DNA of 64,000 nt from Amoebidium appalachense (GCA_963693365.1 CAVNZM010000014.1:1612001-1676000), one strand, 5' to 3'. Shown: positions 10,233-39,972, counted from the first letter of the stretch. Notes: generated from the sequence alone by a model not told the origin. A program made the numbers and translations.

Positions 10233-11723
10233 CTAATCCAAAAGCGGCTGTTTCTGAGATGGGTGGCAACCAGCCACAACACTAACTCCCTTTTCACAAT
10301 CCGATGGTGTTTTCTCTTTCGATTTCCGTGTTGTTCTATTCGTCGACTGGAAAGCGACATTATAATCCGGGGTGGATATATCGCTAAGCTGCTTAGGCCC
10401 GGACTGTTGCGCCGAATTTCCTTGTTGGCTAGGCTCGAGAATCGTTGAATAGGCGACTATAGTAGCAACCGCATCACATAAGTACGTAATCACCACCGTT
10501 CGGTAGATTGAAGACGTCAGCATAACCGCAAACATGTGTCCGGAATAAACGATTCCCAGCGCCACCGCCACCATCGTGACGAACGCGAGACCCAAAAAAA
10601 TACGTAAATTGTTGTGGTAGTCCATAAATCGCAAATCCACCTGAACCCCGTCCATCCCTCGCGTGTAGAGAAGACCCCAGACTGGAAATATTAACGCAGG
10701 GACCATCATACCGAAATCTAACATGATGTGCATGTGATCTAAATCCATATCGTAGAGAAAAACCCACATCCAGAAGCCTGTAAACGCAAGCACGCCAATC
10801 CCAAGAACGACAGGGACGGGTTTGTGGTATTCATTCTTGCCGAGAACGCGTATGCTGTGCGACCGAAACATCAAACCGACGATTCTCTGCCGTTTAAACG
10901 CACAGGATATACCAAACATTAATGTAACACACATTAACCCTCCAAACAAGAGAAACCGCACCTTAAACGCCTCTTTTGAAGCCATGGCTGCTTCCATCGT
11001 TCCTAACGTCTCCACGTCCAAAAAATCGACGGACCCCCCCACCGTCCCCGTGAAATTTCCGAGGAAAAGCGTCATTGCCACGAGCCCGGAGATGTTAGAG
11101 ATAACATAATCGTTGATAAAAAACCAACCACGCGCCCGGATAGCCGGTTTTTCGCGCATAACATAGCAAGCGACCCATGCCGCAAGCACGAATACCACAC
11201 AACCCGTGTTCAACCAAAAATTCAACCAAAAAACCCAATGATCCCCTTTCCGGTGTTCGTCGTATACTTCGATCGACTCTCGTTTCCCTTTTAGAAGTAT
11301 CTGTAGGTAACCCAGTTTTGCCGCGGTGTTGGTTGTCGTTTTGAGCGCGTTGTCGGCTTCTACCATTTTGCTTATTATAGGCTCCATGTACCAATAGCAC
11401 GGATATGGATAACGTATCTCCGAGATCGCCAACATTACCGTTTCGACTGCGATGGCAAAGGCAAAACAAACGAAAAATGCCGTCCATGTAACTACATAGT
11501 ATCGATGTACATGCGGGTTGCTAGGCTTTTTGGGTGTGGTTATGGGTCTTTTTCCTTCGTTCGGCGGCACCACCGGGGTTGTTGTACGCACGGATGTGAT
11601 GATGCTGTGAAGAGGGTCCGGTTTCTTGGGTGCTGTTGGCCTGTGAAAAAAACATATGGTAAGTATCCGTGGGGGAGAACCATAATTTGTGTTATACTTA
11701 ACGACGCAACTATCACACACCAT
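10233..11723 (-). CDS. Intronless multi-pass membrane protein (~8 TM helices), family unknown
   Basis: 496-aa ATG-initiated ORF of complex sequence with about 8 hydrophobic segments and a PCYW motif after TM1. It has no poly-C/CA tracts, unlike neighbouring host genes. Confidence 0.75.
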   Translation of the reverse strand: MVCDSCVVKYNTNYGSPPRILTICFFHRPTAPKKPDPLHSIITSVRTTTPVVPPNEGKRPITTPKKPSNPHVHRYYVVTWTAFFVCFAFAIAVETVMLAISEIRYPYPCYWYMEPIISKMVEADNALKTTTNTAAKLGYLQILLKGKRESIEVYDEHRKGDHWVFWLNFWLNTGCVVFVLAAWVACYVMREKPAIRARGWFFINDYVISNISGLVAMTLFLGNFTGTVGGSVDFLDVETLGTMEAAMASKEAFKVRFLLFGGLMCVTLMFGISCAFKRQRIVGLMFRSHSIRVLGKNEYHKPVPVVLGIGVLAFTGFWMWVFLYDMDLDHMHIMLDFGMMVPALIFPVWGLLYTRGMDGVQVDLRFMDYHNNLRIFLGLAFVTMVAVALGIVYSGHMFAVMLTSSIYRTVVITYLCDAVATIVAYSTILEPSQQGNSAQQSGPKQLSDISTPDYNVAFQSTNRTTRKSKEKTPSDCEKGVSVVAGCHPSQKQPLLD

Positions 11724-11739
11724 GTGGTTTTAAAGTTGC

Positions 11740-15232: not shown

Positions 15233-16970
15233 AAGCACCAGCTGGGGTGGGAATTCGGTGATAGGCTATTATTTTCATGCATGGGATAGTTCGCTCGGTT
15301 ATCCAGCACTCAGCAGTCAAGTAAAATGAATTTTCGCCACCGTAGTGGTAAAATTGGGGAACCTTTTGACATAATCTTAAGGTTTTGGGGGCTTTTTGTT
15401 GACATTAATTTACAATTTTCATCGCCGCTGGTGCCACTTTTGTGCTGAACTTTTTAATCGCAAGCATGTTGATAGGTGTGAGTTTTTATGTCGCGTTTTA
15501 CCTCTTTCCCTACGGGTGTCTGCTACACTAGCTGGCAATGTGAACACTTCAGACTTTTTGTTGAATTCTGTTGGTCGTCACATTGAGTATTTATATCATT
15601 TTCACACAGTGTTCAGGTATCTCAGTATGCACTTGTTACTGGATAACTCGTGAAGTTTTTATTGTCTTCTCTGTATGCCGTGCATACTTGCATATCTTTC
15701 CGTCGAATAAATCCAGCCAAAAGAAGAAAAAAAAGTTACAATGTCATGGCCTTACACCAGTCTGATGGTTATTTTCGTTTTTTTTTTTTTTGGCGCAAAA
15801 CTCCCTCCCTTCAGTCAAAACACAGCCTTCAAGTCAGTTCTCAGGTGACTCAGAGCCGGTTTTTTTTTTAAGTTCTCACGTGTCACGCTTTCATCCGTGT
15901 TGTTTTTGGGCCCTTTCGCTGTAGGTCACTCTCTCCATGGGCAAACACGCGCTTCCTAGGGTAGCCCCTGTGGCTGCCAGCACTCGGCAGCCTGACCATC
16001 GCTTTTCAGATGGGAAGGAGCAGTCGAAGCCTGGCCCTAAAACACTCAAGTTGGGCGATTTTCTTAAACACGCTTGCGGTGGTCAAGGCAAAGAAGGCCA
16101 AGCAGTCTGGTACGGTCGCCACTGAAAAGTCTGTGGGCCAGGAATCGGGTGCTAATATTTCGGTTGCCAAGGAGGTGGCGGAGGTGGTGGAGAAAAATGC
16201 AGCCGTCTCTAACCCCCCGGCCCGGGGGAAGGGGGGGGGGAGGCCTAGGGGGGGGGGGGGGGGGGGGAGGGGGGGGGGGGGGGAACAACGAGAGGGAGTA
16301 ATTACGTTGGAACTGGAAAGAAAGCCCAGTTGCCTGTAGGCGGAGGAGACAGGCAGAGAGAGAGCTGGGAGGGTAGTGAGGGAGGGGTGGGGGTGCACGT
16401 GGGGGGGAGAGGGGGAGGCTTCGGAGAGAAAGAGAGACCGGGAGTCTCAGAGCACCGTGAGAGAGGGGGAGAGAGAGAGACAAAGAGACTCTCGGGGAGA
16501 GAGGGAGAGAGAGAAAGTAGAGAGGAGAAGAGAGAGAGAGAGAGAGAGAAAGAGAGAGGGCGGCGCGCTGCGCACGCCTCAGGCTATTCATTAAAGTTAG
16601 TCAGCAACACAATGTCTCTATCCTGAGATGAACAGGCGATTATAACACCTAAACGAAAGTTAGACTGGCTGTCTCAGGTTATAATGATGCGGGTAGGCGA
16701 GTGTGATATGCGTGCTCAGTGAAAACAAAATCCCTGAGTTTCAAAAGCACCTGTATCAAGTGTGTTTTGGCTTCTGAGGGGCTGCCCGCCGGAGGATATA
16801 TTTACATAGTAGCGGATAGGTATACAAAGGTTTATCTGATCTATCCAAAGTAAGTATATCCTGGAAATACCCCACCTTTCGCGAGGCCAAAATGGATGAC
16901 GTCACAAAACTTCGGAAAATACCCGACTTGAAACCTGCCACCTACTGAGATGGCTCCTTATTTTCCCTTA

Positions 16971-17230
16971 GGGCCTGTTTGGCAACCCGGGTTTAGGGTC
17001 CTAAATCCGGATTACGGGCGATTTTGGGTTTAGCGCTAAATCCAAATCTCAAAATCCAGCCGCTGCCAAACAGACGGCCAGATCCGGTCACGTAAATCTG
17101 GGTTTCAAACCCCTCGGGGCCCGGGTACCATATCAGGAGCGGGCAATTTTTGAATTCTCCCTCCCCGGCCCCGCCGGGGAAAATTTGAGGTTTTTGGACC
17201 TCAAAGAAGTCAAATCCTGCAAAATCCACT
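16971..17230 (+). mobile_element. PIF/Harbinger-type terminus (TTA + GGGCCTGTTTGG) with AAATCC/GGATT subterminal motifs
   Basis: TTA|GGGCCTGTTTGGCAACCCGGG fits the PIF/Harbinger TIR consensus and TWA target site. Related CTGTTTGGCA motifs occur at ~17064 (inverted) and ~30200. The partner TIR was not found in the window. Confidence 0.6.
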
Positions 17231-17994
17231 ACCGGGAGGCCAAAAAGGGTGATTTTACAAAAAAGGAGGGACATACATGAAAAAGAGAAAATGGGCGAGT
17301 TCAGTGGGCTGCCGATAAGTATATTTCGTGCTGGGCCGGTATACATGCTGCCGTGGTTGTTGCTGTAGACGGCAGTATGGCATCGCATGTGTCACGTGAC
17401 CTGCACGTGAATGCGACCATGTGCAGGCACTGAGTCTAGGGGGATTTGTATGTGTGTTTTGGAGCACCGACAAGGCAGAGCCAGGGTGAGGGATGTGTAA
17501 ACATGGAGTTTAGGGAGATCGTGCTGCTATTGTAACATGTGCACAAAACAGCCACGTGCACCGGCACACTCCGGTGTACAGAACAATAATATGCACATGC
17601 GTCACTGTAATATCATGTATGCGCATGCCGCACAAGGTTTAGGAGACCACCACAGTATATACTATTTTCTTTTGGTTGATATCCATGTAGGAATGGTGTG
17701 TTGCAGTTGTCATGATCAGCCTGAGGCAGGCACGTGCACTCACTGAATCACTAGAACTCATGAATAAAAAATACATTCGCTAAAAACGGCAAGGTAAATT
17801 TGGGGCCAAGCTATTATTTCCCCCTTTTAAACGTTTTTTTAGCTCCAAGAACTTCGACGCCAAAATTTCTATATTTGGCCATCGTATATGATAATGAACA
17901 CGTGTACTTAAATTAAAGTAGTTATATAAATATGAGCGGCCCGTTACAAATACAGTGACGAAAAACAGTGACCCACGAGCAGTTTTTCTTTCTA

Positions 17995-18055
<61 letters not shown>

Positions 18056-19370
18056 ACACACACCAGACACACACACCACCACCACGGTGACCACCACCAC
18101 CACCACCACCACCACTCACCCCTTAAAAAAACCACACACATACGTGCACGTGTACACACACACACAGAACACCACCACCACCTCCACTGGACCCCATTTC
18201 CTCGTTGTTTTCTTAAGCCTTCAGACCAGTCCTGCACACTGGAGTTAAACAATTGAATTCACCTAGGCTGACATGCATCCACCCCCGCCTTCCACTTCCC
18301 TCCCCCCACCCCCACCCCCCACCCCCCACCCCCACCCCCTCCCCCTCGATGAAGAAGGGCCCCCGTAAGCCTTGGGGGGGGGGGGGGGGGGGGGAGAGGG
18401 GAAGGGGGAGCTCTTGAGCCTCCGGGTAGGGAAGTGGGGTCCGGGGATCCGGAGAGGAGGGGGGGGGGGGGGGGGGGGGAAGGGGCATATAATATTGGGC
18501 CTAGATATCATAGTATGGGGCCCCGGGGGAGGGAGAGGTGGGGGGGGAGGGGGGAGGATCCACGGGAAAGACCTTTAGGTGCATGTTCTTATTTATACCC
18601 CCTTCGAATCATCCCCCCTCTCCCCCCCCCCTCCCCCCCCCCTGAGTGCAGGCCGTGACGTAGCTACGATAACCCTGCAGAAGGCAACAAAAATGTATTA
18701 ATTACTAGCACTATACATGTGTTCATAGTGCAGCTTGCACCACGTATGATCTCAGCAACTTTAAAGTAGTCACAAAGTTTAGTTATTTTCATTATTTTCA
18801 TTGCTCTGAACTCTATTACTCTGAAATGATCACCGTGCATGTGCCGCAAGATAACAACCCTATATGTGTGCAGCTGCTGCCTGCAGGTTAGACTCGCTGA
18901 AAAGACAATTGTCAGTGTGCATCCGACGCTTGCAGCTGCAGCTAGCCTCTGCAACATTAATACTTGCCAAGTGAATGCTCTTACACTTGATCATCATTCA
19001 CTCAAAAAACCGAGGACCGACAGATTAAATATTAATGTCGATCCGAATGATCAGCAAGTGTCTATGCGTACTACTATATATACACACACGTAAAATGCGA
19101 AGCTATCAGTTACAAGGCACACCTGCTGCACTGGCACACATACACATACACACCGGCAGATCGATGCTGTCAAAATTTACTTTCATGTACTTCGTAGGTC
19201 CGACACAGGTGCACATGAACACGTACATATGTACAAGCCGCGCACACACCACACCACACATACACACACACACACACACACTCACACACACACACGCACA
19301 CACGCACACACGCACACACGCACACACGCACGCACGCACGCACACACACACACACACGCACGCACGCGCG

Positions 19371-19462
<92 letters not shown>

Positions 19463-19899
19463 GACACACACACACACACACACATCACTGGGTGCGCTCG
19501 CTGGGGATTAGTTTTTTGGCACGCTGTTGACTTTATCGTGTGTTTATTATTTGCTATTTATTGGCCAGCGGCCAACATTTAAAAATATACTATATACCTA
19601 AAAATAGATACTGACTACGGCCAGCAGACATTATACACCTTCCAGGACACATTAACACCAATAGTCTAACACACCATACTCTCGATCACAAAGAATTCCT
19701 AACAAACAGAGAAAAGTGCAAAGGCTCTGTACTATTACTCAGATTCTAAATTTTAATTCTTTACAGTAAACTTCGGAATGAAAGCTAGCCCCCCCCCCCC
19801 CCCCCCCCCCTCCCCCCTAACATGACTGTACGAAGAACAGGTATAACTTGAAGCACTACAACACATATGAGATCCGTTACATTGGTGTACATTCCAATA

Positions 19900-21564
19900 T
19901 TAGACACTAGTTTGGCTACTCTGACTACTCTGAGATCCTGATTGGCTGCCTGCAGACTTGCGGCCACGATTACTTTGCTTTCGATCGTGCCATTGCAGCT
20001 GCGTCTCTCCAGCAGGTGGCAACGCCAGGCCCAGCACAGCAGATGCACGAGAAGGGGGTGGGAACTGCCCACCAGCCGAGGGCTGGCCCACATGGCCCAA
20101 GTAAGGATGGGGACCGTGCTGCGGCAGTAGCCCAGGCATGGGGAAGGCAGGGCCGGGCTGAGGCGGCATGATGCCCCACGGTGGGGGCCAGCCATGTGGG
20201 TGGTGCGGGCCTGGATGGGGTGCAGGGGGCATGTGCGGCACATGGCCCTGCTGCATGTCAAGCGCGGGTGCTGGTGGCATGGCATCCTGATTGGCTGCAA
20301 CCCAACGTGGGCAGCTCTTGGCCCGATTGGAGCCGGGGCAGCCCTTGCCCTGGCGGCCACACGTCTTGCAGGTCTTGGGGGCTCTCTGGGGTGGCTGCAT
20401 AGGAGGGGGCACCGGCAAATCCATCTGCAGGGGCCCCTCAGGGCCAATGTTGCGATGCTTTTTGCCCACTAGCATGGGCAAGGGCCGCTCACGCTGCGCC
20501 CCTGCATCGACACCGTCTGGAACAGGGAGGGGTGGCAAGGGGGCAGGCCGTATGGTTGCTGGCACAGCGTCTGCCCTCTCCTCGCGCATACGCTTGCGGT
20601 GATCTGCCAGGCCCTCGTGTGTGGAGCGCTGTGCATGTGCCGTCTGCCAGGTCTTCCACTTGTCGAAATGCTTCTTGATGTAGGCCGCATCCTTCATGTA
20701 GATTCCCCCAGCCACAGAGGCAGCCTTGTTGAAGTCTTGGGCCAAAGCCTCGAACAGCTGGCCGTTGGGCTTTGCATGTGCCTTGTAGGTGCCCAGGAGC
20801 AGCGTGCTGAATAGCTTGCGCTCCTGAGGGGTAAGCACCGGAAGGAAGGGGATGGCCACATGTTGCTTCTGCGCCAGGAACTTGTAGTCGCCCCTCAGTG
20901 CAGGGTCCGGCTGTGGTGCACCACGCGCCACCTGGTTGCCCCCCCCCCATGGCAGCACCGTCACCCTCCTCGACCTCACAGTCCTCTGGCCCGCCCATCA
21001 CGCCATTGGCTGCAGGCTCGATGTTATCAGACGGAGGTGGGGGTGCGGGCACCGCAACTGGCTCCTGCGCCGGGGCATTGGCCACACAGGAGAGCGGGGC
21101 AAAGTTGAAGTACTCCTCCGGTAGCTTGTAGCAGCCTACGGGTACCCACTGGGGGTCGAGGTGATGGCCGTACAGCATCAGCGCCAGTGCCTCCATGTCG
21201 TCAACAATCCAGGGGCTGTAGTGGGGGGGCCCCGATGCCTGGCCCAGGCGGTTGCGGTAGTGTGCACGCAGGTTGTGGCGGTGGCGCCTATTGGACATGG
21301 TGGCGTCCAGCAGGCGCAGCGACATGCGTGTGGCCCCAAAGTGGGTGGCCAGGGGGTTGTGCACTGCCCCCTCCACCTCGTTGGTGCCCCGGATGCAGCG
21401 GTAGCGCATGAGCCCATCTGCGTCGGCAGTGGTCTCGTAGTAGAGGGGCAGGCCGGGGGGGGTCCGACAGACAGCCATTTTGGGCGTGTTCGAGCAGCGA
21501 CTGTGGGGGCACAAGCAAACATCAGAGAGATGGGTGGGTGGTGGTGGTGGTAGTGTGTGTGTGT

Positions 21565-21612
<48 letters not shown>

Positions 21613-21684
21613 TGGGGTTGCTAAGGAAAAAAACGAGCAGGGAAAGGCAAAAAACAACTGGCTAGGCAGCAAGGGCCGTGCGGG

Positions 21685-21744
<60 letters not shown>

Positions 21745-21748
21745 ATGT

Positions 21749-21785
<37 letters not shown>

Positions 21786-22323
21786 GGCTAGGGTGTGCGT
21801 GTGTGTGCAGATGAACCAAGGATGACAAATAAGCGAAGAATCTTTTCTGTGGTGGTGGAGTTGTTGGGCGCCTGCAGGGGGAGGGGGGGGGGGGGGGGGA
21901 TGTTGCCTCGAGTCTTTCAAAGCCATCCTTCTTGAACAGAGGCTTGCCATCCGGTCCGGGCGGCACATCCTTGTAGGTGTTTTTGAACTCCACCAGCCGC
22001 GAGACCAGCGTGTATGGGTCGGGAATAACCCGCCGGATGCGCTCCATGAAGTAGCTCAGGTCGCCGCCCTTGAGCTCGGTTTCAATGTCGATGCCCTTCT
22101 GCTCCAGCACCCCCTGTGAGGCAGGATGCCAATATTAATTTACTACGCACACTGCAATTTGGGTTTGGTAGACTTTGATACCTGCCGTTATTGTAGGACC
22201 CCTCCCCTCCACCCCCCCATCTTCTCCCCCAACACAAGTAAAAAATGCATGTGGCTCTTTCCCCCCACAACCCTACATTATTTCTCTCTAGGCATATGAA
22301 TAACCCCCACTCTCCTCCCCCCC

Positions 22324-22372
<49 letters not shown>

Positions 22373-23397
22373 TCCCCCCCCTCTCTCTGAGGCTCAGGCT
22401 CTCTCTCTTCCCTCAGAAGTTTTGTCGAAGGTGTGCATGGTTGTGGGTGGAATGGTGAGTGTGTGCTAACGAGTGTATGTGTGTGTGCGCGTCAGTCACG
22501 CATGTTGTTGTTGCCGTTTTTTTTATTTTTATTTTTTATTTTTTATTTTGGGGGGGGGGGGAGGGGGGGGGCACCTTCACATGTCCGTAATCCTCTTCAT
22601 TCCACACAAATATTGCCTCGCTGAGTGCGCGTGCGTACTCAGCCCTGCGGGGGTGTGACTTGTACGTGCCGTCCGCCGTGTTTGCAATGGAGTGGAAGGC
22701 GTCATTCAGCACAGTCTGCCACACCACCTCCCCAGGCGGTGCCTGGCCCAACATGCCCTCTCTGGGAGCTGCCTCGGGTCCCCCTGGGGCTGCCTCAAGG
22801 CCCCCCGGGGCTGCCTGGGGGTCCTGGGGGGGTGCCTGTGGGCCGGCAAGGGGTTGCTGCTGCTCGGCAGGGGGAGGGGCTGGGTCAGGGACCACCGGCA
22901 CCTCGGCACCTGGGTCCGGTGGGGGCTGAATGGGCCGTAGCCACTGCAGGTGCACCATCAGCTCAAAGGGCGGCGGGCCCAGCTCTCCCAGGGTCTTGCC
23001 CTTGTCGGGGCCAAAGGGCACCTGCATGGCCGGCGACAGCACCTGATCCACCCGCACCACTGCATGCTTCTTGCCCACCTTCATGCCCCCCCAGCGCTCC
23101 GGCTGCACAGCCAGCACCACCCCGGTGGCTGCTGCAGCATGTGGGCCCCGCCGGGGCACAATCTCAACCCCTTCACCGAGTGCCTTTGCATGAAGCCGCG
23201 CTGCATGTCATAGAGGGAAGCAAAAAACTCAGCCAAAAAGCCACAGCACCAACGTTTTTCTCTTCGCTCCACAAAAATCAAATGCATATTCCTTAGCAAC
23301 CCCCCTTCCCCCCCCCCCCCCCCCCCTTCTCCCTCCCCCCCCCCCCTCTCCCAGTGCCCAGCTTGTGTGGCACTTGCACGTGTTAACAGTGCTATAG

Positions 23398-23435
<38 letters not shown>

Positions 23436-25051
23436 ACCACCACCACCACCACCAATCACCCCCTCCTTTGATAGCCACCCGACACCCAGCATAACACAAC
23501 TGGAACACTGGCCCATGTGGTCAGCCACCCCCCCCCCCCCCCCCCCCCCCCCCCTCCCCTCCCCCTCCCCTCTCCTCTGGGGGGCCCAAAATCTTTCTAT
23601 ATCTGGCATAAGCACATAAGCACTGGGGCAAAAAGCAGGTGGGATACACACCTGACAGGTTTGGCCTATCGACCACGGCCGAGTAGACCTGCAGGGACGC
23701 ATATGCATCAAGGGCAGCGTAGGTGGCCTGCACCTCTGATAGCGGCTCGTGCCAGTTGGAGCATCGAACAAGTGCCGGCTTGGGCAGCTTCTTGCCTATG
23801 ACCTGGGCAGTGATGTCGGCCAAGCCCCGGGCCGCAGAGGTGATAGCTGCACGGGCATAGCAGAACCGGCCCAGCTCCAGATAGCTGGCCACAGGGGTGC
23901 CGTAGTCCTTGTTGAGGTGGGCCGAGTCCGTGCCGATCTGCTTGCCCACCTTGATGATGCTGGGGTCCCTAAGCAGCGCAATCAGCTCGTCCACCAGCCG
24001 CGCGGGCGGGCTGTGGTTGGGGCCCATGCGTGCCAAGTGGAAGATGTACACGGCCCGTGCGGTGGCAATCTGCAGCGTGCAAACCTTGGACCGCGCCTGG
24101 CCCACCCGATAGACCCACTCGCAGTCCAGCCCCACCACGCGGTGCTGCTGCCCCTCCAGGTCGGCACGAATGGCCGCTGTAGCCACCACCGCCCCCTGGC
24201 AGTCGGTGTACACCGGCTTAGGGTAGTTGGCCGGCAGCTCCAGCCCAGGCAGACCGTCCGTCACGCTTACCAGCGCAGCCTCGTTCAGACGGACGGGGCA
24301 TTTTGGCCGGGCTAGGGTTGGAAACATGCGCTCAACAAATGCCCGGTCTTGGCAGCACCGATCTGTGTAGAAGAAGGCCGGGCCCTTGCTGTTGAGCGCC
24401 GCCGTGGTGGCAGAGATGCGCTGGATCACGGGCTCAATCTCCTGGTGGCTGCAGTCCCGTGTAAATACCTGCGCCCGGATCTCTGGGGTGCCGCACTGTG
24501 TGAGAGGGCATCTCCGAGCAGCCATGCATGTTCTAGCTTCCCTTACCACATGGCCCTTCACGAGACTTCAGTGCCCACACAATCCTTTCCCCCTCCCTCC
24601 CCCCAAACCCATGTGCCCACATACTTTCCCCTCCCTCTCCCCCAAAACCCTTCCCCCTCCTTCCCCCCAAACCCATGTGCCCACATACTTTCCCCAGGCC
24701 TCCCTTTCCCCCAAAATCTTCCCCCCCCCCTCCCCCCCTAAACCCATGTACCTACAATCCTTCCCCCTTCCTCCCCCTAAACCCTTGTGATCACAATCCT
24801 TTCCCCCTCTCTGCCTTCCCCCCAAACCCATGTGCCCACGATCCTTCCCCACTCCCCCTCCCCCCAAACCATGGGACAGCCCTCCATATGGCACCTACTG
24901 TCCCCCCCCCCCCCCCCCCCCCACCCCACCCCGGGCCTCTTGCCCTCTCTACCTTCAACCCCGACGGTGGTGTCTCTCCCCCCCCCCCCCCCCCCCCCCC
25001 TGCATCCCTTGCAATCACTGGCCCCTACTCCCATTCTGCTTGGCAGAAGCT

Positions 25052-25112
<61 letters not shown>

Positions 25113-25346
25113 ATTCCCCGCCAAAAGAAAGCTCCACCCCAGCCCACCCCAATCTCTACCCAGCAAAAACACATACACACATATCTGGAGCTTCCTAGTT
25201 TTTGCTCGACAGGGCAAGAATTGTCCCCAAAACCCACATACTACAAACCTCTACTCACAGTGTGCCACCTCATTAAATGTGGAGCCTAAGAGATTTAAAG
25301 GCCCTAGAGGGGGGAGGGGGGGGAGGGGGGGGAGGGGGGCGTGTGT

Positions 25347-25377
<31 letters not shown>

Positions 25378-25806
25378 GGCGTGTGTGGGGGGGGGGGGAG
25401 GGGGGGAAGGGGGCCTGGGGGGAGAGTGGGGGGAGGGGGAGAAGAGGAGGGACCACACACCGCCAAGCTCGTTTACACAAGTCCATAGGCCTCGGTACAG
25501 AGGCTCCCCATTGATGCCGGTGAGCTTCCCAATTTGGAAGGTGTGGTCGGCCTTGAGCACGTTGTTTACGGGCTTGAGCTGCGTGTCCAGGCTCTGGTAC
25601 TTTGCCGTGCGGTCGCTGAACTCAGTATACACGGCACTCAGGTATTTGCCTGAACCCCAAGTACTGTTAGAACTCCACCACCCTCCCATCAGGACCATCC
25701 CCCCCATTCCCTCTAGTCCCTCGTGTTCATCTCACCTCTCTGTATTTTCGTAAGTCTGTATGGCTTTTCCCATCTCAAAAACGCTACACACCCATCTCCG
25801 GCCGTT

Positions 25807-25843
<37 letters not shown>

Positions 25844-26015
25844 CCTCCCGGCGCGCGCAAACCCTCCAAGTCATTGCACCAACTTTCACCTTCTTTCCCC
25901 TTTGTGCCCCATCTGCAGTTTGTCCCCTGCACGTCCGTTTGCCCTTCCCCCCACACCCTCCTGCCACTACTATAATAACCATTAAGTACCGCCACCAAGA
26001 TCCAGTCTACCACCA

Positions 26016-26078
<63 letters not shown>

Positions 26079-26334
26079 CTCTCCACCTCCTTTCCCCCAA
26101 CACACACAGACACACATGCGCACACCCACCATCTAATTTCAGGCATAACAGTTCTCCACGATTTCCCAAGCACACTCACTGGTACATGGACCGTTATGCT
26201 TTCACCCCTCTGATGATCCCTCTGCCCTCCCCCCCCCCCCCCCCCCCCCCCCCCCCCACCACCACCACCACCACCACCACCATGACTGATTGCCACCACC
26301 ACCACCTAATCCATCACCATGTCCCCCCTCCCCC

Positions 26335-26382
<48 letters not shown>

Positions 26383-27773
26383 ACGGACCCACAAGTACAC
26401 GCACACTCACAGGCGCACATCCACCACCACACATCCACCACCACCATAATAGAAACTTATTGACCACACTTCCAAAACCCATTTCCAAGTCCCCCCCCCC
26501 CCTAAAAAAAAAAATAAAAAATAATAAAACAAAACCCTACCAAGCCAACCCAAAAAATGCCCAAGCACGTGCATACAAAACAATGGGGACCATTTACACA
26601 CCCAAAATGCAGTGCACACTTGCCTGAAGGCACATGTCCAGCGTAACCATTTTTGTCACCAAACGCCGAGAACTTAGCCGCCTGCTCCTCTGGGGGAAGT
26701 TCTGTCAGGCGCTGGTCGTGGGGGCGGAAATCGTTACGCTTTTTGAGTTCATACTTGGTCCAATGCAGCGCCCTCGAGTAATACAGGAGCCGCTGCTCGT
26801 CGTATCGCTGCTTGTGGAGCTCCGAGAGGAGGGTGGCAAAGGCGTTTGGGCCCACACCTTTGTCTGCCAGTGCACGCAACAATGTTACCACCTTTAGGTC
26901 GAGCCCACTGCGGTGGCTAAGGTAGGCCGGAAACTGATCACGCATGAAGAGTGGAAGGCGTTTAATTGTCTGGGGGTTTGTGCCGGCAAAGTTTTTTTTG
27001 CATGTGTCACAAAAGTACCGGGCCGTGATAATGTAGTAGCAGCTGTCAAAGTCGATAACACGCCGTCCTACGGGGTTGCTCATGAACCCATTGCGAGAAG
27101 TACGGTGTGGGTTGGGGTGGTTGTGGGGGTCCACGTAGTGATCATCGAAGGGGCACGGCACCATGAAACCGGGAGACAACCTTTCCGGAAGCCAGGCAAA
27201 ACATCTGGGTTTGTAGAAAGGCGCTGGATCGCCCCCAAATTTAAAGCCTATAATGGGAGGTGGAAGATGCCACCCCACAGGCGTCTTCTCATCTTTGAGA
27301 CTCTCTTTCACTGTGTGCAGGTGCGACTTGATTGTTTCGCCCGCCGCGTCAGAAAACTCCTCTCCACCGTCATCCCCGTCCGTATTATCTTCTCCCTCTT
27401 CCTCCCCTTCATCCTCGTCTACCCGGTACGCATCTGCTGCTGCATTTAGCAAAGGTTCCTCGTCGGGTTGCACCTGTATGTCTGGTGGGTGTGGAGCAGG
27501 GGCCCGATCCATTTCTCTTGGTAACGAATGGACGCTACCTGCCTCAACTACACGGGCCCTTATGTCGGCGGCCTTAGATAGAGGGGGCTGTTCGGGTTGT
27601 ACGTTTACGTTTAGTTCCTGCAAAACAGCTTTGTTTGCCGTCCCAAAACCTGCAAAGTTCGCTAAAGGCTGAACAAATGCAGCATCTTTTTTTTTGCGCC
27701 CAGCTCCCTCCCTAGCTCCGCCTGTTTTATGCCCAGGGCGCTGTGTTGTGCCCTTAGGGCAGCCTGGCTTCAT
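19900..27773 (-). CDS. DUF6729-type DDE transposase-like protein with an inserted WRN-like 3'-5' exonuclease (exons 27773-26624, 25649-25461, 24482-23652, 23200-22575, 22113-21907, 21500-19900; ~1530 aa)
   Basis: Phase-compatible exons give, in order: GGAREGAGRKK; a Cys-rich CPF...RYFCDTC region; VLKADHTF; NELGEIR; FYTDRCCQD; DnaQ/WRN ExoI-III motifs (VVGLDCEW, IKVG..IGTD, SNW..PLS..Q..YAALDAYAS); NDAFH; HAQNGCLSDPP; YRCIRGTNEVEGAVH; and a C-terminal CKTC..CPG..C knuckle. Two 1-nt indels in homopolymers (~21455, ~20945) are needed to keep the frame. Confidence 0.8.
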
Positions 27774-28209
27774 TTTAAACACTTGGGGCCTGGCCCCCTG
27801 CCCCCCTAGTGCGACTACGTTACCGCAAACATTCCCGTATTCCAGTGTGCTCGGCAATGCTGCTCATGGCCTTCCCGGACTGGTGGTTGTGACCAGTAAA
27901 GAGCGCGCCAATTCCTGACCGCCGCCTACAGCAGTGTATGATCTGTTATCCATATTCGGCAAAAGGGGTCTTGCCCAACCAATGGCTTGAATCCTTGTAA
28001 CTTTGCTTTATCCATATAAGGTTAGCTGAACACCCCCCCCTCCAATCATACCCCCCCCTTCTCTCTAGTAGTAGCTCCTGGCATGCCGCACCCCCCCCCC
28101 TCGGACATGGCCGTAATCTGGATTCCACTAATCCACCTCGGGAGGTGGATTAGCGCGAAATCCTTTCAGGTCCTGAATGTCCGACCCAATGAATGTTCAT
28201 TTTATGGAA

Positions 28210-28809
28210 CTATATATGGTGTCCTTTTGCACCAATCGTCGATAGTTTGAAGTGGCCAAAAAAGGATTGTTGAAAGGGCGCCAAACCAAACTTCCGTGTA
28301 GGCAAGTTGTGCTGCTCTTCGTCTGAGTAGTGGCCATGCTCCTCCGCGTTGTGCTTTTTTATAAAGTTCATAAGTAGAAAGCACACAAGAATGATCTTCG
28401 AGAGCATCTTAGGACAGTAGTTGGTGGCTTTCTGGAGTATCTGAAAGCGGTTTTTCAGCATACCATAGAACCGCTCAATGACCACCCGCGCCTTGGCATG
28501 CCTCAGGTTGAATAACTCCTTCGCATTCTGAGGACTAGAACACGACACATGAATAGACAACACCAGACACTTCAACATCAATATGACAGTGTGTGTGTGC
28601 GCGTGGCTGTTTGTGTGTGTGCATGTTCGTTTAGTGTGTGCACGCGGGCATGACCCGTGCGGGCACACGCGGACGCATGTGTGTGTGCGTATTTGTACAC
28701 GTGAGTCTGTGTAGGTGTTTGTGCATGCGCGCACGACCGAAGTTCAGGTTGGATGTGTGAACTATCTATCTCTCCTTTTCTCTCCCTATCCACTCTCTCT
28801 GTGCATGTG

Positions 28810-28875
<66 letters not shown>

Positions 28876-30033
28876 TGTGTGTGTGCAGAACAAAAGGAAA
28901 CAGGAAAAGCACACTTTTTTACAGATGTAGGGAGGGAGTGATGGGTCGAGGGGCCTTCTTTTTTTGGGGGAGGGGGGGAGGGGGGGAGGGGGGGGGGGGG
29001 GGGGGGGGGGGGCTAAATACGCCATTGCTCCCGTCCCGTACTCCTTCAGATGATAGCGGACTCCTCTGTAGGGTGCCAAAATTTCGTTTGTGTTCGGGTA
29101 GCCCTGGTCACCCAGGTAAACTTTCCCCGTCGGCACACGTAAATTTTGTGGAGGGGGCTGCTCGAGGGCACAGTTCAACACTGTGCTGTCTGCACCACAT
29201 CCCTCCCCACCGGGCAAACAATGTGGAATATGCTTCCCAGTCGCATGCACCCAATACATTTTGTGCTGTGCAACCTTTCCTGCACCGATACCGATCAGCA
29301 GCCTCCGGTTTGACCTTGCACGGAACAAGAGTGCCATCAACTGCCCCGAGAACAATACGGAAGTAAGGCCAAAACTCAGGGTTTTCACGCACCCAACTAG
29401 GCACCATATATGACTCATCGGGTTGAATCATGTATTCTTCCCCGAGAGCAGCAAGCGTGGCATCGATGCCTTCTCGAAAACGCCTGCAGCACACAATGAT
29501 GTCTGATTATTTTCCACATTCCTACATATAAGCTTCATTGAAAACAACAGCAAAACCTTGAGACAGTGCACGCGCACGTGCACCCTGGACAGTGGAACAC
29601 AACCCATTCGGAGCATTGTTGTTTAACAAGCACAGACAAATGCTGCAAACACACAGCCAATAACATAATTCAACAGGGCAGGAGTCATAGCACTACATAC
29701 CGGCTCACGGTCTCGGTGCTGTGTTGGAAACGTTCGGCAACGTTCCTGACTGCAACACCCTGCCCAAGGGTATACAGCATCATGCAGGTAACTTCCTGAG
29801 CGTCCATGTTATCACTCTCTTCAATGAATGGAGCCAACTTCTCAATTAACTCCCTTGCAACATATGGACTCACGCGTAGGACATCGTTCACCCTTGTCTC
29901 GTGAGCTGTGCCAAGCAGTTCTTGCACATACTCTCTACCACTGAGCGGGGAAGTACGACAGGGCTCTTTGAGCTCTGGGCTATAGGTCAAGGCTGCAATC
30001 GCAGCCAAAACGGCTATGTTCCGGGCTGCATAC
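28210..30033 (-). pseudogene. PIF/Harbinger (HARBI1-like, DDE_Tnp_4) transposase, intron-containing and frameshifted
   Basis: Motifs RFQHSTETVSR, GAVDGTLVP, YRCRKG..QNVLGACD, YLGDQGYP, PYRGVRYHLKE and ELFNLRHAKARVVIERFYGMLKNRFQIL. There is a frame break near 29220 in the expected GWEG region. Confidence 0.88.
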
Positions 30034-30448
30034 ATGGTGAGTGTCTCAAATAAAACCGTATACAACTCAGCACTTTCGTGGTTTATTACTGCTTATCACT
30101 ATGGTGTATATGTGTAGCGGGTCTGCAATTGCAAGTCACCGACCGGTGATGAACAGCGTGACAGCTGCAGAGCAAATCTAACCCGAAATCGTACGTGGGC
30201 TGTTTGGCATCCATGGGTTATCTACCCGGCTTAACCCAGGTTTAGCCTACATGGTTATGTTGGTATCGAACACCCATCCTACGTGTCTACCCAGAAAAAT
30301 ATTTATGTCAATAATTTCCACAAATAAAACCTCTATGAAAACTACTCCGGGACGTGTGTTGCCTCTAGGGGGACATCCCCTTGGACGAAAGTGAACCTGC
30401 AATGGTTGTAAACCACGGCACGAGAGCAGTATGCTTGCTCCAAAGGTT

Positions 30449-31483
30449 TCACTTAAGAATAGAGGCGAATACACGTGTGGTGGTGGCAGCAATGGAGGCC
30501 GGACGAAGTCGGGTATAGATCAGGAAGCAGTCGGAGGACCACCGGCCGAGTTGTTTGATCCGGGAGTCGTCGACCCCGGCCTCAGCCAGTGCTGTGGCCC
30601 CCCCGATGCGGAGGCTGTGTCCGGCAAACCGGGAGGGTGAGAGGCCTGCCTGGGAGAGGAGGGCACGGAAATCGGCAGAGAAAGCACTCTTGGTGTAGGG
30701 GATGCCACCGAGACTGAAGAGGGGGTCGTCGGGTTGACCGGACGTTGTATCCAGGAACTGCCGGAGGAGATGGGCTGGGGAGAAGTGGGTGAGGGGCAGG
30801 GCAGCTAGGGTGACGTTGACACCTCGGGCCTGTACATCCGTCTTAGAGGTTGGCAGGTGGAGGGTGGCATGGGACAAAGTACCGGTGGGGGTGTAGCTGA
30901 AGGTCACGTCCTTCCGTTTAACGTGACGGGACGGGTCGAAAGAAGTCAGGGTCTTGGAGGTATATTCCCCTGAACGGAGGAGACCACAGAAACCGACGAT
31001 GAGGGCCGTCCATAGCCGGAGATTGGCCGAGGAGGCCTTGGTGGGGCACTGGCCGTGGAGTAGGCGGAGGTGGGAGGGGAGGAGGGGTTCCCTGCCGGTG
31101 GATGAGCGGGGTCGGATGTTGTGAGAAAGCTGCCATCGGCCTACCCCCCGTAAGAACCAGGCCAGAGACTTGTCGTGGGGGTAGGGAGCAGGGAGGCCCA
31201 TGTCGAGGTGGAGCCTGGTGATGGCCGAATTGTAGCCGGTTAAGGAAGAGGCCTGTACCCCTCGTTGGGCACACCAGGCGAGAAAAAGTTGTACGGTGTG
31301 TGGGGAGGCCGGGAGGGAGGACCCGGAGGAGGATTGCAGCCGAGATGCCACACAGAAATCGATGAACACTTTTTGCACCCGGGAGTAAAAGGCCCGAGAG
31401 TCGAGGTTGAGACTCAGGGCCTGGCATTCCTGCAGGGTAGTGGTGGCTCGAAGTAGCTCGGCCGGAGCAAAGTGGGGGGCCAA
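30449..31483 (-). CDS. Tyrosine recombinase of Ngaro copy 1
   Basis: Motifs GLLRSGE, SKTD, GHSLRIGGAT, LGRWSS and catalytic Y (LIYTR), with an N-terminal SAM-like segment. There is no in-frame ATG start. Confidence 0.92.
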   Translation of the reverse strand: MAPHFAPAELLRATTTLQECQALSLNLDSRAFYSRVQKVFIDFCVASRLQSSSGSSLPASPHTVQLFLAWCAQRGVQASSLTGYNSAITRLHLDMGLPAPYPHDKSLAWFLRGVGRWQLSHNIRPRSSTGREPLLPSHLRLLHGQCPTKASSANLRLWTALIVGFCGLLRSGEYTSKTLTSFDPSRHVKRKDVTFSYTPTGTLSHATLHLPTSKTDVQARGVNVTLAALPLTHFSPAHLLRQFLDTTSGQPDDPLFSLGGIPYTKSAFSADFRALLSQAGLSPSRFAGHSLRIGGATALAEAGVDDSRIKQLGRWSSDCFLIYTRLRPASIAATTTRVFASILK

Positions 31484-31531
31484 TCTGCCAGTGTTGCTCC
31501 GGAACGGGAGATCTGGGGGGGGGGGGGGGGG

Positions 31532-33177
31532 TTAGCCCAAGGGAAGGGATAGGAACTCGTGGACCCAGGAGGGGAAGGGGCAGGGCTCCGGTTGCAGGGA
31601 AGGTCGGAGTCGTCGGGCCCGGGGAAGTTGGTTACGAGAAATGGCATCGGCCAGATGGTTGAGGGGTCCTGGTAGGTAGGATGCCTGTAACGTAAATTGG
31701 TATTGCATTTCCATGCGGGTGATGAACCGAATAAGTTTGGCCATCACGGGGTGGGGGGAAGACCGGGAGTGCAGGTCAGACACAGCACCCGTGTTGTCGC
31801 ATAAAATACGGACATGGTGGGTGGACCAGGAGGGGGCCCAGAGGGCCACGGCGGCTGCGATGGCCAGGAGTTCGATGACGGAAGAACCGAGTTTACCCTC
31901 ATGAGCATAGAGGGCTTGGGTGGAGGGGGACCAGGGCATGAAGAACCATTGGTCGAGCCAGTGGCCACCTAGACCCACCGATCCGGCAGCATCAGTGGCC
32001 AGGGTGGTGTATGTGGGGGGTGTGATGAGGTGCACCCCATTCCATGATGTGAGGAACTGGTGCCATTCGGCTATGTCGGCCCGGGCGGCAGCAGTCAGTC
32101 GTATGTGGTGGTGGCCGGCAAGGTGTGGGTGGGTCCGGAGAAGGGCCCATAGGCGCTGGGAGAAGGCCCTCCCGGGGGGAACCAGCTGGGCACACCAGGT
32201 GAGTTTGCCGAGGAGGGACTGGAGGTCCCGAATGGTGATGGTGGGCTTTGGGTGGGAAGTGAGGTCGAGTAGGTCCGAGAGCTTGGAAGCCGGGATTCGT
32301 GCCTCCATGGCGATGGAGTCGAATTCGATACCGATGAAGACGACACGGGTAGCCGGGCCCTGCATCTTGTCTTCGGAGATGGCAATGTGCAGCTCTCGGC
32401 AGAGTTGCAGGAAGGTGGATAGGTGACGTTGGCACTGCTGTTGTGTGGGTACGACTATAATCCAGTCGTCTACGTAGTGGCGGATGAGGGTAATACCGTG
32501 CTGGTGTGCCAGCCACTGTAGGGTGGCCGCGATCCGTTCCCAGATGGCGGGGCTAGATTTCAGACCGAAGGGCAGTCTGGTTTCAACGTAAAAATGCCCT
32601 TGCCATTTGAATGCCATTAAGTGGTGGTCTTCCGGTCGGATGGGCATGTGCCGGAAGGCAGCCTGCACATCTGCCACGGCCATGTAGCAGCCGGGGCCTG
32701 CGTCGAGAATGAGTTGGGTGACATCCCGGGCGCGAATGTACTGAAGTTCGTCGGGGTAGGTGATGCTGTCATTGACACTGCTACCCCGGGGCCAGGAGAG
32801 GTGGTGGATTCGACGGTACTTGGGGGGGTTCCCTTTCTTGGTAACGGCGCCGATGGGGGAGGAACGGTGGACGGGAAATTCGTCAAAGAATTGGGCCGGG
32901 GAGAGGGGGCCGCGCAGGTGGCCGAGGGCGACTTCTTTGGCAATATCCACCGTGATAGCGGCAGCTGCCTCCGGGGTGGTGGGTAGGTTGGGGCCCACCC
33001 GAGAGGTGGAGGGGCCGCGATAGCCGATGTCGACGCCGAATTCGACATCGTGGAGGAGTTGTGCGGCGAATGGTTGGTCCGGGTAGGAGGCCAGCAGTTC
33101 CCGGAGGTGGGAGGTGTCAATGTGGTGCTGGGGCAGCGGGCGGGCCTCCGGGTCTGAGCCTCGGGGGAAGGGGTGGT
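31532..33177 (-). CDS. Reverse transcriptase + RNase H of Ngaro copy 1 (5' part cut by the Copia insertion)
   Basis: Motifs RRIHHLSWP..SVND, ADVQAAFR, LPFGLKSSP, YVDD, TDAAG, ELLAI, CDN and NHLADAISR. The frame extends upstream of the listed ORF (YPDQ..FGVDIGYRGP) up to the insertion point. Confidence 0.92.
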
Positions 33178-34102
33178 TGTTAATTTCTATAAGTATTTAG
33201 GATGTAAGCAGAGACACAGTGGTGCAGTGTGAAAACACCACAGACACACACAACAACAAAACACGGAACGATCGGAGCAGTGTACACAACAGACATCAAT
33301 GTTTAGACACGACTGAACTGAATTTATTCTGATCTTCGAATAAATACCTGAAATTCCTCTAAGTCCAATCCATACATGATTTCCGACCAGTCGGAAATCA
33401 GATCCATCTCTAATAGAAACCAATCACTAAGAACCAATTGCTTTCAGAGAGATCCGGTACGCGGAGGCGTACACGATAGGACACAGACACTAGTTAAGAT
33501 CAACTCGTGTCATCATCAAGGAAGTTCTAACCTATGACATACTGCAAAGACTCAGACATATCACACTTAACCTTGATGATTGGTTAAAGCCCGGCAACAC
33601 ATGAAAACTAAAGTGAATTAATGAAGTCTAAACACACATGCTATTCTAAGTGTAGCCTAAGTGTGTTACCGTCCAATGAACACGTATTAAGTAACACAAA
33701 TCTACCTAACATATATTAGTAGAAAAGAAATACGATTATACACATGAAGACAAGGAGAGAAAGAAAAGAAAATAAGGAAGGAGAAAGAGGAAGGAAAAGA
33801 GAGCACAGATCAACAAACAAGATAGTAATAGCATAACTATAACCAGAGATATTTATGTACACACGAACATGTACACGTCTCTCCCTGAGTGGGTGGATCC
33901 GTGTACACACATATAAATATTCTAATCGATATTACAATACACGATTAAAGCCGATACAACACGATTACAAGTATACAAGCATATCGGAGATCGATGCTAC
34001 ACTTTACATAATAGGAGTGTGGCATTTACACTAAGCATATGAACTGAAACATAACACAAACTGAGAAGATCTTACCATATGTAAATACTACGTATTACAA
34101 CA
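33178..34102 (-). repeat. Copia 3' LTR (925 bp)
   Basis: Direct repeat of 39007-39931 with no differences noticed by eye. On the minus strand it is preceded by the PPT-like AAGTGGGGA. Confidence 0.96.
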
Positions 34103-34533
34103 TCCCCACTTAAGACTTTGAAGTTTGTGTTATCATATCCCCACTGAACTAGTGAAATCTCCCCACTTGAGAACAGAAACGGAAAAAAAAAATTAAAGTG
34201 TGTACTTTTCCGGGGGGGGGGGGGGGGGGGGGGGAGAAGGGGGGGGGGGGGGAGGGGGGGGGGGGGGGGAAGGGGGGGGGAAGGGGGGGGAAGGGGGGGG
34301 GGGGGGAGGGGGGAAGGGAACCGGGGCAAAAACAACGAATATATATAACGTGTATAGGCGGTGTTTGATTAACTGGGTTTTAAACCAGTGAAAGATAGAG
34401 TAGAGTGATGGTACAGGTCAAACCTTATATATAAACCCTAAGTGGGCATACCCACAAAGGCAATACATATGATATAATGATGTTGATAAAGTAAGTAGTA
34501 CACATGAGAAAATCACTCTTGAAGTAGGTCGGG

Positions 34534-38944: not shown

Positions 38945-38992
38945 GATTGAAAAACGAGCGCGAGTTCTAGATGTGTGTAGGGAGCGTGCAAA

Positions 38993-39931: not shown

Positions 39932-39972
39932 GTGGTTAGCAAGGGTGGTGTACCCTTGGGGAGATCCCGGCA

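What the first reader, a model, noticed from the sequence alone, without database searches (positions are those of the whole stretch)
19900..27773. Spliced ~1530-aa transposase-like gene with a WRN-type 3'-5' exonuclease inside its DDE core
Seen: the ORF track shows only fragments, but six phase-compatible exons join into one protein. Its order is basic GGAREGAGRKK motif, Cys-rich DUF6729-like region, D (KADHTF), D (YTDRCC), a full DEDDy exonuclease (GLDCEW / IGTD / YAALDA), DxxH (NDAFH), E (RGTNEVEGAVH), then a Zn knuckle. Known: D..D..(C/D)xxH..E is the signature of the Mutator/hAT/Kolobok/Novosib/Dada group, whose insertion domain follows the second D. Inference: this is a poorly characterised DNA transposon lineage carrying an apparently active exonuclease exactly in that insertion position, perhaps to trim or process ends or flanks during transposition. 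Similar domain pairings may already exist as unannotated fungal or protist proteins.
Basis: partly seen in the sequence, partly recalled or inferred. Interest (0 to 1): 0.82.

Follow-up and report, generated by a model that had tools for sequence, protein, structure and literature searches.

The report
Mobile Dada transposon with built-in exonuclease
This is a transcribed, multicopy 11-kb jumping gene of the protist Amoebidium whose cut-and-join enzyme carries a predicted DNA-trimming module, a design already published in 2013 for Dada transposons, so it is a well-preserved new example with mappable ends rather than a new kind of element.

Summary
A 1533-aa Amoebidium parasiticum transcriptome protein matches the six exons exactly; two introns are GC-AG. 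As assembled, exon 6 has two one-base homopolymer excesses, so the window's frame stops at codon 1072.

D418, D487, DxxH (890-893) and E1044 are conserved (DDE in 98 of 100 spanning homologs). The predicted fold matches the IS256-family transposase ISCth4 (Z 13.4) and WRN exonuclease (Z 26.7). Kojima and Jurka (2013) described this layout, a DEDDy exonuclease between the second D and DxxH, in Dada transposons of Laccaria and Ectocarpus, with the same end-processing idea.

What this locus adds: the element spans 17118-28096 (10,979 bp) inside a Harbinger transposon. It has an apparent 8-bp target duplication (6 bp is also possible), a 7-bp subterminal inverted repeat, an empty site in four runs and several other flanks. 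It is not in a small-RNA gene here. A 2025 Ectocarpus library still lists its exonuclease-bearing Dada as incomplete, TSD unknown. This scan had already found the same kind on other DNA (seven earlier notes).

Verdict: new member of a known kind, low interest.

The parts
17118..28096 (-). Whole Dada-type element, 10,979 bp (left end could be 17116 if the TSD is 6 bp)
   Evidence: Empty-site contigs and other-flank contigs at both ends (table 7; tables 7, 8)
17110..17117 (+). Left target-site duplication CCCCTCGG (8 bp apparent)
   Evidence: empty site continues from 17117 into the sequence found after 28104 in X5, X2, X8
28097..28104 (+). Right target-site duplication CCCCTCGG
   Evidence: empty-site contigs in X1 and X5 join 28097 to the sequence before 17110
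17134..17140 (+). Left subterminal inverted repeat CAGGAGC, positions 17-23 from the end
   Evidence: 14 of the first 23 bases match the other end; a run of 7 or more in 181 of 100,000 shuffles and 262 of 100,000 random window 40-mers
28074..28080 (-). Right subterminal inverted repeat, positions 17-23 from the end
26624..27773 (-). Exon 1: basic N-terminus, acidic linker, DUF6729 with zinc-finger ligands C207, H212, C255, C258; GC donor
25461..25649 (-). Exon 2: first catalytic D418 (codon 25548-25546)
   Evidence: (127 of 127 aligned homologs)
23652..24482 (-). Exon 3: second catalytic D487 (24363-24361) and the whole WRN-type DEDDy exonuclease (D566, E568, D632, Y701, D705; 24126-23707)
22575..23200 (-). 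Exon 4: predicted beta-rich domain, disordered Pro-rich linker, DxxH (D890 at 22703-22701, H893 at 22694-22692)
21907..22113 (-). Exon 5: part of the helical insertion domain; GC donor
19900..21500 (-). Exon 6: catalytic E1044 (21373-21371), C-terminal helical domain, four-Cys knuckle (C1378-C1397; 20370-20311), Pro/Gln tail; broken as assembled by two one-base excesses
21455..21462 (+). G8 run, one base longer than in the transcript contigs (first frameshift)
   Evidence: table 4
20939..20948 (+). C10 run, one base longer than in the transcript contigs (second frameshift)
   Evidence: table 4
16971..30243 (-). Host PIF/Harbinger-type element that the Dada copy interrupts near its left end (not part of the Dada element; right limit set by a later insertion at 30244)
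   Evidence: DDE_Tnp_4 E 1.3e-11 at 28213-28743; contigs starting at 16967-16971 run across the empty site

Best explanation
It is a transcribed, multicopy DNA transposon of Amoebidium, likely of the exonuclease-bearing branch of the Dada superfamily, whose single spliced 1533-aa protein is predicted to cut and rejoin DNA with a DDE core and would trim exposed 3' DNA ends with its built-in WRN-type exonuclease. Shown: splicing, both ends, target duplication, an empty site, other flanks, conserved catalytic residues. Predicted: D418, D487 and E1044 lie on one RNase H-type core, with the exonuclease and a beta-rich domain looped out before DxxH. Inferred: the zinc-finger and helical domains bind the subterminal repeats; the DDE site frees the 3'-OH ends and joins them to GC-rich targets with a stagger of 8 (or 6) nt; host repair makes the duplication. 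The exonuclease most likely acts in cis as an accessory on 3' ends exposed during excision (donor flanks or surplus flank nucleotides) and is useful but not essential. Confidence is about 0.9 for identity and mobility and about 0.5 for the trimming role.
For: Transcript-derived protein identical to the exons. Empty site in X1, X2, X5, X8; other left flanks in X5, X7, X8; one other right flank in X14. X5 contig depth 1460-2873 inside the element against 163-197 in the left flank (a hint only). Of 100 homologs spanning D1 to E, 98 keep DDE, 96 DxxH, 86 all five exonuclease residues and 83 all of these. Model pLDDT 84, pTM 0.77. Matches: WRN exonuclease Z 26.7, rmsd 1.7, 184 aligned; ISCth4 Z 13.4, rmsd 5.6, 341 of 401 aligned; integrase cores Z about 10 spanning model residues 263-957. 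An exonuclease-less relative gives ISCth4 as top hit (Z 13.3, rmsd 3.5, 275 aligned; Foldseek E 2.1e-4). The paper describes the same exonuclease position in Dada-1_LB, Dada-2_LB and Dada-1_ES. D1-D2 spacing is 69 here against 68 in Dada-U6_DR. Read by eye, Dada-5S-A_CaAu has N, E, G and the second D at +25, +26, +28 and +69 from the first D, as here.
Against: No published Dada protein could be aligned with a tool: Dataset S1 is unreadable, and no Laccaria or Ectocarpus record came back or the motif searches. Membership therefore rests on motifs, spacings and by-eye comparison. The TSD looks like 8 bp, not the published 6-7. No tRNA or Rfam gene lies in the window. Both zinc fingers differ by one ligand from the published CCCC and CCHC. 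The window copy is frameshifted as assembled. Exonuclease activity is untested, and 11 of 94 homologs with intact DDE and DxxH lack a full exonuclease site, including a 5-member dead clade (support 0.995). Distances between the three acids in the model could not be measured.
Confidence: 0.85

Rival explanations
1. Same element, but it moves by copy-out/paste-in through a circle like IS256-family elements, and the exonuclease trims the flank-derived spacer or flap of the junction.
For: [quoted passage not shown] Dada papers report one-ended events and flank replacement. Some listed left junctions fall at 17121 and 17125.
Against: Fold likeness does not fix the pathway; Hermes and P transposases also match (Z 8.9). 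No end-to-end junction was listed, whose joint table was cut. The odd junctions may be subfamily variants, since contigs starting at 17125 carry 2 substitutions and a 3-base insertion.
Confidence: 0.25
2. The exonuclease is mainly a structural or DNA-binding passenger with little role in end chemistry.
For: Fish Dada are not reported to carry it. Two homologs lack it and nine have three or fewer of the five site residues, all nine with DDE and DxxH intact.
Against: 86 of 100 spanning homologs at about 25-35% identity keep all five catalytic residues, which a passenger would not do. The search was seeded with an exonuclease-bearing query, so this share is biased upward.
Confidence: 0.15
3. The exonuclease acts on RNA, as a MUT-7/Nibbler-like trimmer of host small RNAs, to counter silencing.
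For: Nibbler/MUT-7, EXD2 and RNase D are close structural relatives (Z 18-19 for Nibbler and RNase D).
Against: WRN, a DNA exonuclease, is clearly the best match (Z 26.7; profile E 1e-49 against 1.4e-20 for mut-7). The domain sits inside the transposase core.
Confidence: 0.1
4. It is a single-copy domesticated host gene, or two separate genes (a WRN-like exonuclease and a transposase) joined by the reader.
For: It is transcribed and spliced; a domesticated Dada exists in carps and minnows.
Against: One transcript-derived protein holds both parts. There is a target duplication, an empty site and several flanks. All catalytic residues are intact, unlike dDada.
Confidence: 0.02

Closest known systems
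Dada superfamily, exonuclease-bearing families Dada-1_LB, Dada-2_LB (Laccaria bicolor) and Dada-1_ES / Dada-1_Ec32 (Ectocarpus); Kojima and Jurka 2013, PMC3706591; PMC12477816 supplement
   Same: D, D, DxxH, E layout; DEDDy WRN-like exonuclease between the second D and DxxH; N- and C-terminal zinc fingers; introns; length within the published 4666-10979 bp; proposed 3'-end processing.
   Different: New host group in the searches made (ichthyosporean; one search found no paper). Both ends and the target duplication can be read here, whereas Dada-1_Ec32 is listed as incomplete with TSD '?'. Zinc ligands are C-H-C-C and C-C-C-C.
Target-specific Dada lineages (Dada-U6, -U1, -5S and tRNA-targeting families; PMC3706591, PMC8869645)
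   Same: D1-D2 spacing and the NE-x-G motif; no long TIRs but a short subterminal inverted repeat; G-rich start of the end (AGG or GG in Figs S2, S3); an 8-versus-6-bp TSD ambiguity also met in Dada-U1 and Dada-tIA_PMar.
   Different: They insert at fixed sites of small-RNA genes with 6-7-bp TSDs and are not reported to carry the exonuclease. This copy is inside a Harbinger element, and other copies have unrelated flanks.
ISCth4 transposase (IS256 family, related to Mutator; PDB 6xg8; PMC7780238)
   Same: Nearest solved transposase fold; D-D spacing 66; C/DxxH at the start of a helical insertion; 8-bp TSD.
   Different: Bacterial, 401 aa, 31-bp TIRs, A/T-rich targets, no exonuclease; 11% identity.
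KolobokD (PMC9587614)
   Same: A C/DxxH-group transposon that encodes a DnaQ-type 3'-5' exonuclease, proposed to degrade DNA intermediates from the 3' end.
   Different: DEDDh (TREX/ERI1-like) rather than DEDDy; Kolobok makes TTAA duplications.

Membership tests
Dada superfamily (defined by transposase) | [quoted passage not shown] | tested here: met
   D418, D487, D890xxH893, E1044; 127/127, 139/140, 125/129, 129/130 and 123/128 aligned homologs; fold
Dada superfamily (defined by transposase) | Dada-like core spacing and motifs | tested here: met
   D1-D2 69 against 68 in Dada-U6_DR; +25 N, +26 E, +28 G, +69 D as in Dada-5S-A_CaAu, translated by eye; Atlas clusters with Chordata commonest at 0.97 and 0.95
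Dada superfamily (defined by transposase) | N-terminal four-ligand zinc finger (published as CCCC) | tested here: met
   C207-x4-H212 ... C255-x2-C258, the same inner spacings as C389/C394 and C429/C432 of Dada-U6_DR; second ligand is His here and mostly Cys in homologs
Dada superfamily (defined by transposase) | C-terminal CCHC zinc finger | tested here: inconclusive
   A four-Cys knuckle at the same place (C1378, C1381, C1388, C1397); third ligand is Cys, also in 51 aligned homologs
Dada superfamily (defined by transposase) | No long TIRs; short subterminal inverted repeat | tested here: met
   7-bp repeat at positions 17-23 of both ends; 14 of 23 terminal bases match
Dada superfamily (defined by transposase) | 6-7-bp target-site duplication | tested here: inconclusive
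   8 bp apparent. 6 bp fits if the element starts at 17116: 8 of the 12 listed other-flank contigs keep the GG, 1 does not, 3 have variant ends (table cut). The repeat spacing favours 8.
Dada superfamily (defined by transposase) | Direct alignment to the published Dada proteins | not testable with these tools
   Dataset S1 (.fa) unreadable; no Laccaria or Ectocarpus record retrieved. By eye, the exonuclease of homolog P0121 (E 2e-59 to P0004) closely resembles the Dada-1_LB row of Fig. S1.
Exonuclease-bearing Dada (Dada-1_LB, -2_LB, -1_ES) | DEDDy exonuclease between the second D and DxxH with all acidic residues | tested here: met
   D566, E568, D632, Y701, D705 between D487 and D890
Target-specific Dada lineages (U6, U1, 5S, tRNA) | Insertion at a fixed site of a small-RNA gene | tested here: not met
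   0 tRNA and 0 Rfam matches in the window; the empty site is Harbinger DNA. The 30-base flanks of other copies were judged by eye only. Not filed under these lineages.
Kolobok / KolobokD | TTAA duplication; DEDDh exonuclease | tested here: not met
   Duplication is CCCCTC(GG); exonuclease has Y701
Mutator (MuDR) / IS256 | Well-matched TIRs (31 bp in ISCth4; long TIRs and 9-11-bp TSD in MuDR, recalled) | tested here: not met
   Best local match of the two 300-bp ends off the terminal register is a gapless 23-mer with 18 matches; terminal identity 14/23. It works like this group in fold only.
KDZ / Zisupton | CxC cysteine clusters and KDZ catalytic domain | tested here: inconclusive
   No such Pfam hit on P0004 at E 0.01; only CxC4/CxC5 Atlas leads at 0.79-0.80

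The most novel reading that the evidence does not exclude
The exonuclease-bearing Dada branch is a large fungal and protist lineage that does not target small-RNA genes. It has symmetric 7-bp subterminal repeats, an 8-bp duplication and a loose preference for GC-rich sites ending in GG, and its WRN-type domain trims transposition intermediates in cis, possibly in an IS256-like copy-out/paste-in pathway not yet shown for a eukaryotic DDE element. This intact, expressed family in a culturable protist would be a ready system to test it.
Probability: 0.25. Interest if true: 0.55.

Novelty: new member of a known kind. Interest (0 to 1): 0.22.

Why it matters
The architecture and the end-trimming idea date from 2013, so the finding itself is not new. 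Its value is practical. It gives both ends, a target duplication, an empty site and a transcript-derived full-length protein for the exonuclease-bearing Dada branch, whose Ectocarpus member still had no TSD in a 2025 library. That makes the untested role of the exonuclease assayable. It also suggests that many fungal and protist proteins labelled '3'-5' exonuclease' or 'DUF6729' in databases are Dada transposases.

Tried and rejected
No whole genome is held, so paralogous copies could not be aligned; no second copy of the gene or its ends lies in the window.

The repeat finder was swamped by simple repeats. An exact search for the 23-base left end in metagenome contigs gave 0 matches. No run on record as RNA was listed; X8 and X14 are guessed RNA, though their contigs skip the introns.

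Paper searches: 'DUF6729' 0 papers; five-term transposase/exonuclease search 0; Dada+WRN+transposase+exonuclease only the 2013 paper; Dada+ichthyosporean+transposable elements 0. The Amoebidium genome paper had no 'Dada', 'DUF6729' or 'exonuclease' in the two supplement files held; other supplements of that paper, the 2013 Dataset S1 and Repbase entries were not seen and may already define ends or TSDs for such families.

An intron as the cause of either frame change in exon 6 was rejected, because the transcript contigs show one-base differences. A tRNA A-box likeness of the empty site on the minus strand (11 of 13 bases by eye against a recalled consensus) was rejected: the duplicated bases are not at the tRNA positions 8-13 used by Dada, and the other flanks do not share it.

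The sequence search of PDB found only exonucleases, and Foldseek on the full model listed only exonucleases. Three-letter protein motifs found nothing in the 2022 supplement, which holds DNA. A first exon join was off by one base and was redone.
Full report
OBSERVATION. The gene is on the minus strand. A search with exon 3 returned a 100% identical protein. Its cluster holds 18 transcriptome-derived proteins named Amoebidium parasiticum by EukProt, among them P0004 of 1533 aa. tblastn places P0004 on six exons of the window. The exact boundaries give introns of 974, 978, 451, 461 and 406 bases; introns 1 and 5 are GC-AG. Contigs of runs X8 and X14 (guessed RNA, one sample) skip these introns, and DNA runs X1 and X5 show none of these joints among the rows listed (table cut). 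So transposase and exonuclease are one protein. One correction: as assembled, the exons total 4604 bases, two more than needed, and the frame stops at codon 1072. A G8 run and a C10 run in exon 6 are each one base longer than in the X8 and X14 contigs; X5 also has contigs with the shorter runs (table 4). Homopolymer errors in the assembly are the likely cause (inference), but a broken copy is not excluded.

THE PROTEIN. Pfam finds DUF6729 (155-342) and DNA_pol_A_exo1 (557-715). phmmer with residues 146-1286 found 4775 representatives at E up to 0.001 and 323 at 1e-30; many of the weaker hits will be plain exonucleases. I aligned P0004 with the other 149 of the 150 listed. I looked up names for 20 of them; the named ones are from chytrids, Mucoromycota, agarics, Trametes, aphelids and Plasmodiophora, and the rest are unnamed metagenome proteins. 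D418 is kept in 127 of 127 aligned rows, D487 in 139 of 140, D890 in 125 of 129, H893 in 129 of 130 and E1044 in 123 of 128. Of the 100 homologs spanning D1 to E, 98 keep DDE, 86 keep all five exonuclease residues and 83 keep everything; 49 partial rows were left out of that count. On a core tree of 101 rows (FastTree, midpoint root), 9 have a dead exonuclease site with DDE and DxxH intact, five of them forming one clade (support 0.995), and 2 lack the domain (gene models not checked on DNA). The query carried the exonuclease, so these shares favour exonuclease-bearing members.

FOLD. The model of residues 146-1286 (65 rows) has pLDDT 84 and pTM 0.77. D418 lies on the first of three strands, D487 follows the fourth strand, then come the exonuclease, a beta-rich domain and a disordered linker, then DxxH, a helical insertion and the helix with E1044. 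The wide structure search gave WRN exonuclease Z 26.7 (rmsd 1.7, 184 aligned), ISCth4 transposase Z 13.4 (rmsd 5.6, 341 of 401 aligned) and integrase cores at Z about 10 that span both halves of the core. A natural exonuclease-less relative (P0180) gave ISCth4 first (Z 13.3, rmsd 3.5, 275 aligned; Foldseek E 2.1e-4), then integrases, Hermes and P. Atom distances were not available, so convergence of the triad is supported by topology, not measured. In ISCth4 the helical insertion domain begins at the C/DxxH motif, so the exonuclease here is a second insertion upstream of it.

THE ELEMENT. Contigs in X1 and X5 join position 28097 to the sequence that precedes 17110, and contigs in X5, X2 and X8 join 17117 to the sequence after 28104. 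This empty site shows an insertion of 17118-28096 (10,979 bp) flanked by CCCCTCGG on both sides. The empty site may be an allele or another copy of the host element. An X14 contig leaves the element at 28096 into another flank. At the left end, 12 listed contigs in X5, X7 and X8 enter from other flanks: 8 at 17115-17116, 1 at 17118 and 3 at 17121-17125 (82 rows not shown). One flank recurs in X7 and X8. Most keep GG before 17118, which means either a target preference or a 6-bp duplication with the element starting at 17116. A deep X7 contig begins at 17118, and the subterminal repeat CAGGAGC sits at positions 17-23 of both ends only in the 8-bp reading (a run this long in 181 of 100,000 shuffles). 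X5 contig depth is 1460-2873 inside the element and 2685-3944 on the main left-end contigs (one variant contig 162), against 163-197 in the flank; this is a hint of many copies, not a count. The target is the left end region of a Harbinger-type element (DDE_Tnp_4), in a window of other transposons with no tRNA or Rfam gene.

COMPARISON WITH WHAT IS KNOWN. Kojima and Jurka 2013 (PMC3706591; parts 1-3 of 4 of the text and Figs S1-S3 read) define Dada by a DDE triad with DxxH, N- and C-terminal zinc fingers, introns, 6-7-bp TSDs, no TIRs and short subterminal inverted repeats. They state that Dada from Laccaria and Ectocarpus encode a DEDDy exonuclease between the second D and DxxH that likely processes cleaved 3' ends. 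That is the finding. Spacings agree: D1-D2 is 68 there and 69 here; D2-E is 176 there and DxxH-E is 154 here. An element in the supplement of Kojima 2022 (PMC8869645; parts 1-3 of 5 and supplement part 1 of 109 read), translated by eye, has N, E, G and D at the same offsets from the first D. I could not align the published proteins with a tool, so membership rests on these features. The Ectocarpus library (PMC12477816; one passage and supplement rows) lists Dada-1_Ec32 with a WRN-like exonuclease within the integrase, status incomplete, TSD unknown. KolobokD is a separate exonuclease capture (PMC9587614, passages). PMC11244446 (passages and two supplement files), PMC11952901 (one passage) and PMC7780238 (passages) were also consulted. 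I had reached the Dada reading before seeing the seven earlier notes of this scan that report the same kind in other genomes.

HOW IT MOST LIKELY WORKS. Shown: transcription, splicing, insertion with duplication and several insertion sites. Predicted: one RNase H-type DDE core with a looped-out WRN-type exonuclease. Inferred: end binding through the subterminal repeats, DDE cleavage and staggered strand transfer, host gap repair, and trimming in cis of exposed 3' ends by the exonuclease. Strong conservation argues that the nuclease is active; the dead clade and the exonuclease-less members argue that it is accessory. Cut-and-paste versus an IS256-like circle pathway is open.

VERDICT. Real, well preserved and probably recently mobile, but a new member of a kind described in 2013. 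The modest additions are mappable ends, an apparent 8-bp duplication, non-RNA-gene targeting at this locus and an ichthyosporean host. Interest 0.22.

Noticed in passing
window 16971-30243: Harbinger-type element with a spliced transposase gene (transcript contigs skip 29278/29482-29700). It is interrupted by the Dada copy about 140 bp from its left end and cut at 30244 by a retroelement.
   Followed up: partly
window 30244-33178, 39932-41957, 57472-62442: DIRS/Ngaro-type retroelement (reverse transcriptase and tyrosine recombinase) in a 98%-identical pair of about 2.95 kb plus further pieces.
   Followed up: no
window 33178-39931: Copia element with two identical 925-bp LTRs (33178-34102, 39007-39931); its pol reading frame is split in two near 35600.
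   Followed up: no
window 49332-51374: 680-aa open frame with DDE_Tnp_1_7 (piggyBac-like transposase), E 5e-38.
   Followed up: no
window 44856-47062: Tandem array with a period of about 183 bp, about 93% identical.
   Followed up: no
window 10233-11729: 498-codon minus-strand open frame with no Pfam match at E 0.01.
   Followed up: no
window 26624-26612: Transcript isoforms use other splice sites: P0012 (399 aa) reads past the GC donor of intron 1 and ends early, P0009 (937 aa) ends after exon 4, and P0007 has a 5-aa insertion in exon 4. Alternative splicing at the GC donor could limit full-length transposase (inference).
   Followed up: no
window 17118-17900: The left end is deeper in X5 than the coding interior, and an X8 contig leaves the element at 17451, which hints at internally deleted non-autonomous copies. 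A variant with a 3-base insertion at 17172 has a different terminal sequence.
   Followed up: no
P0017 (Podochytrium, 3352 aa): Holds three tandem copies of the transposase region, possibly head-to-tail elements merged by gene prediction.
   Followed up: no
P0063, P0080, P0082, P0089, P0155: A clade with an eroded exonuclease site but intact DDE and DxxH: a natural exonuclease-dead control.
   Followed up: partly
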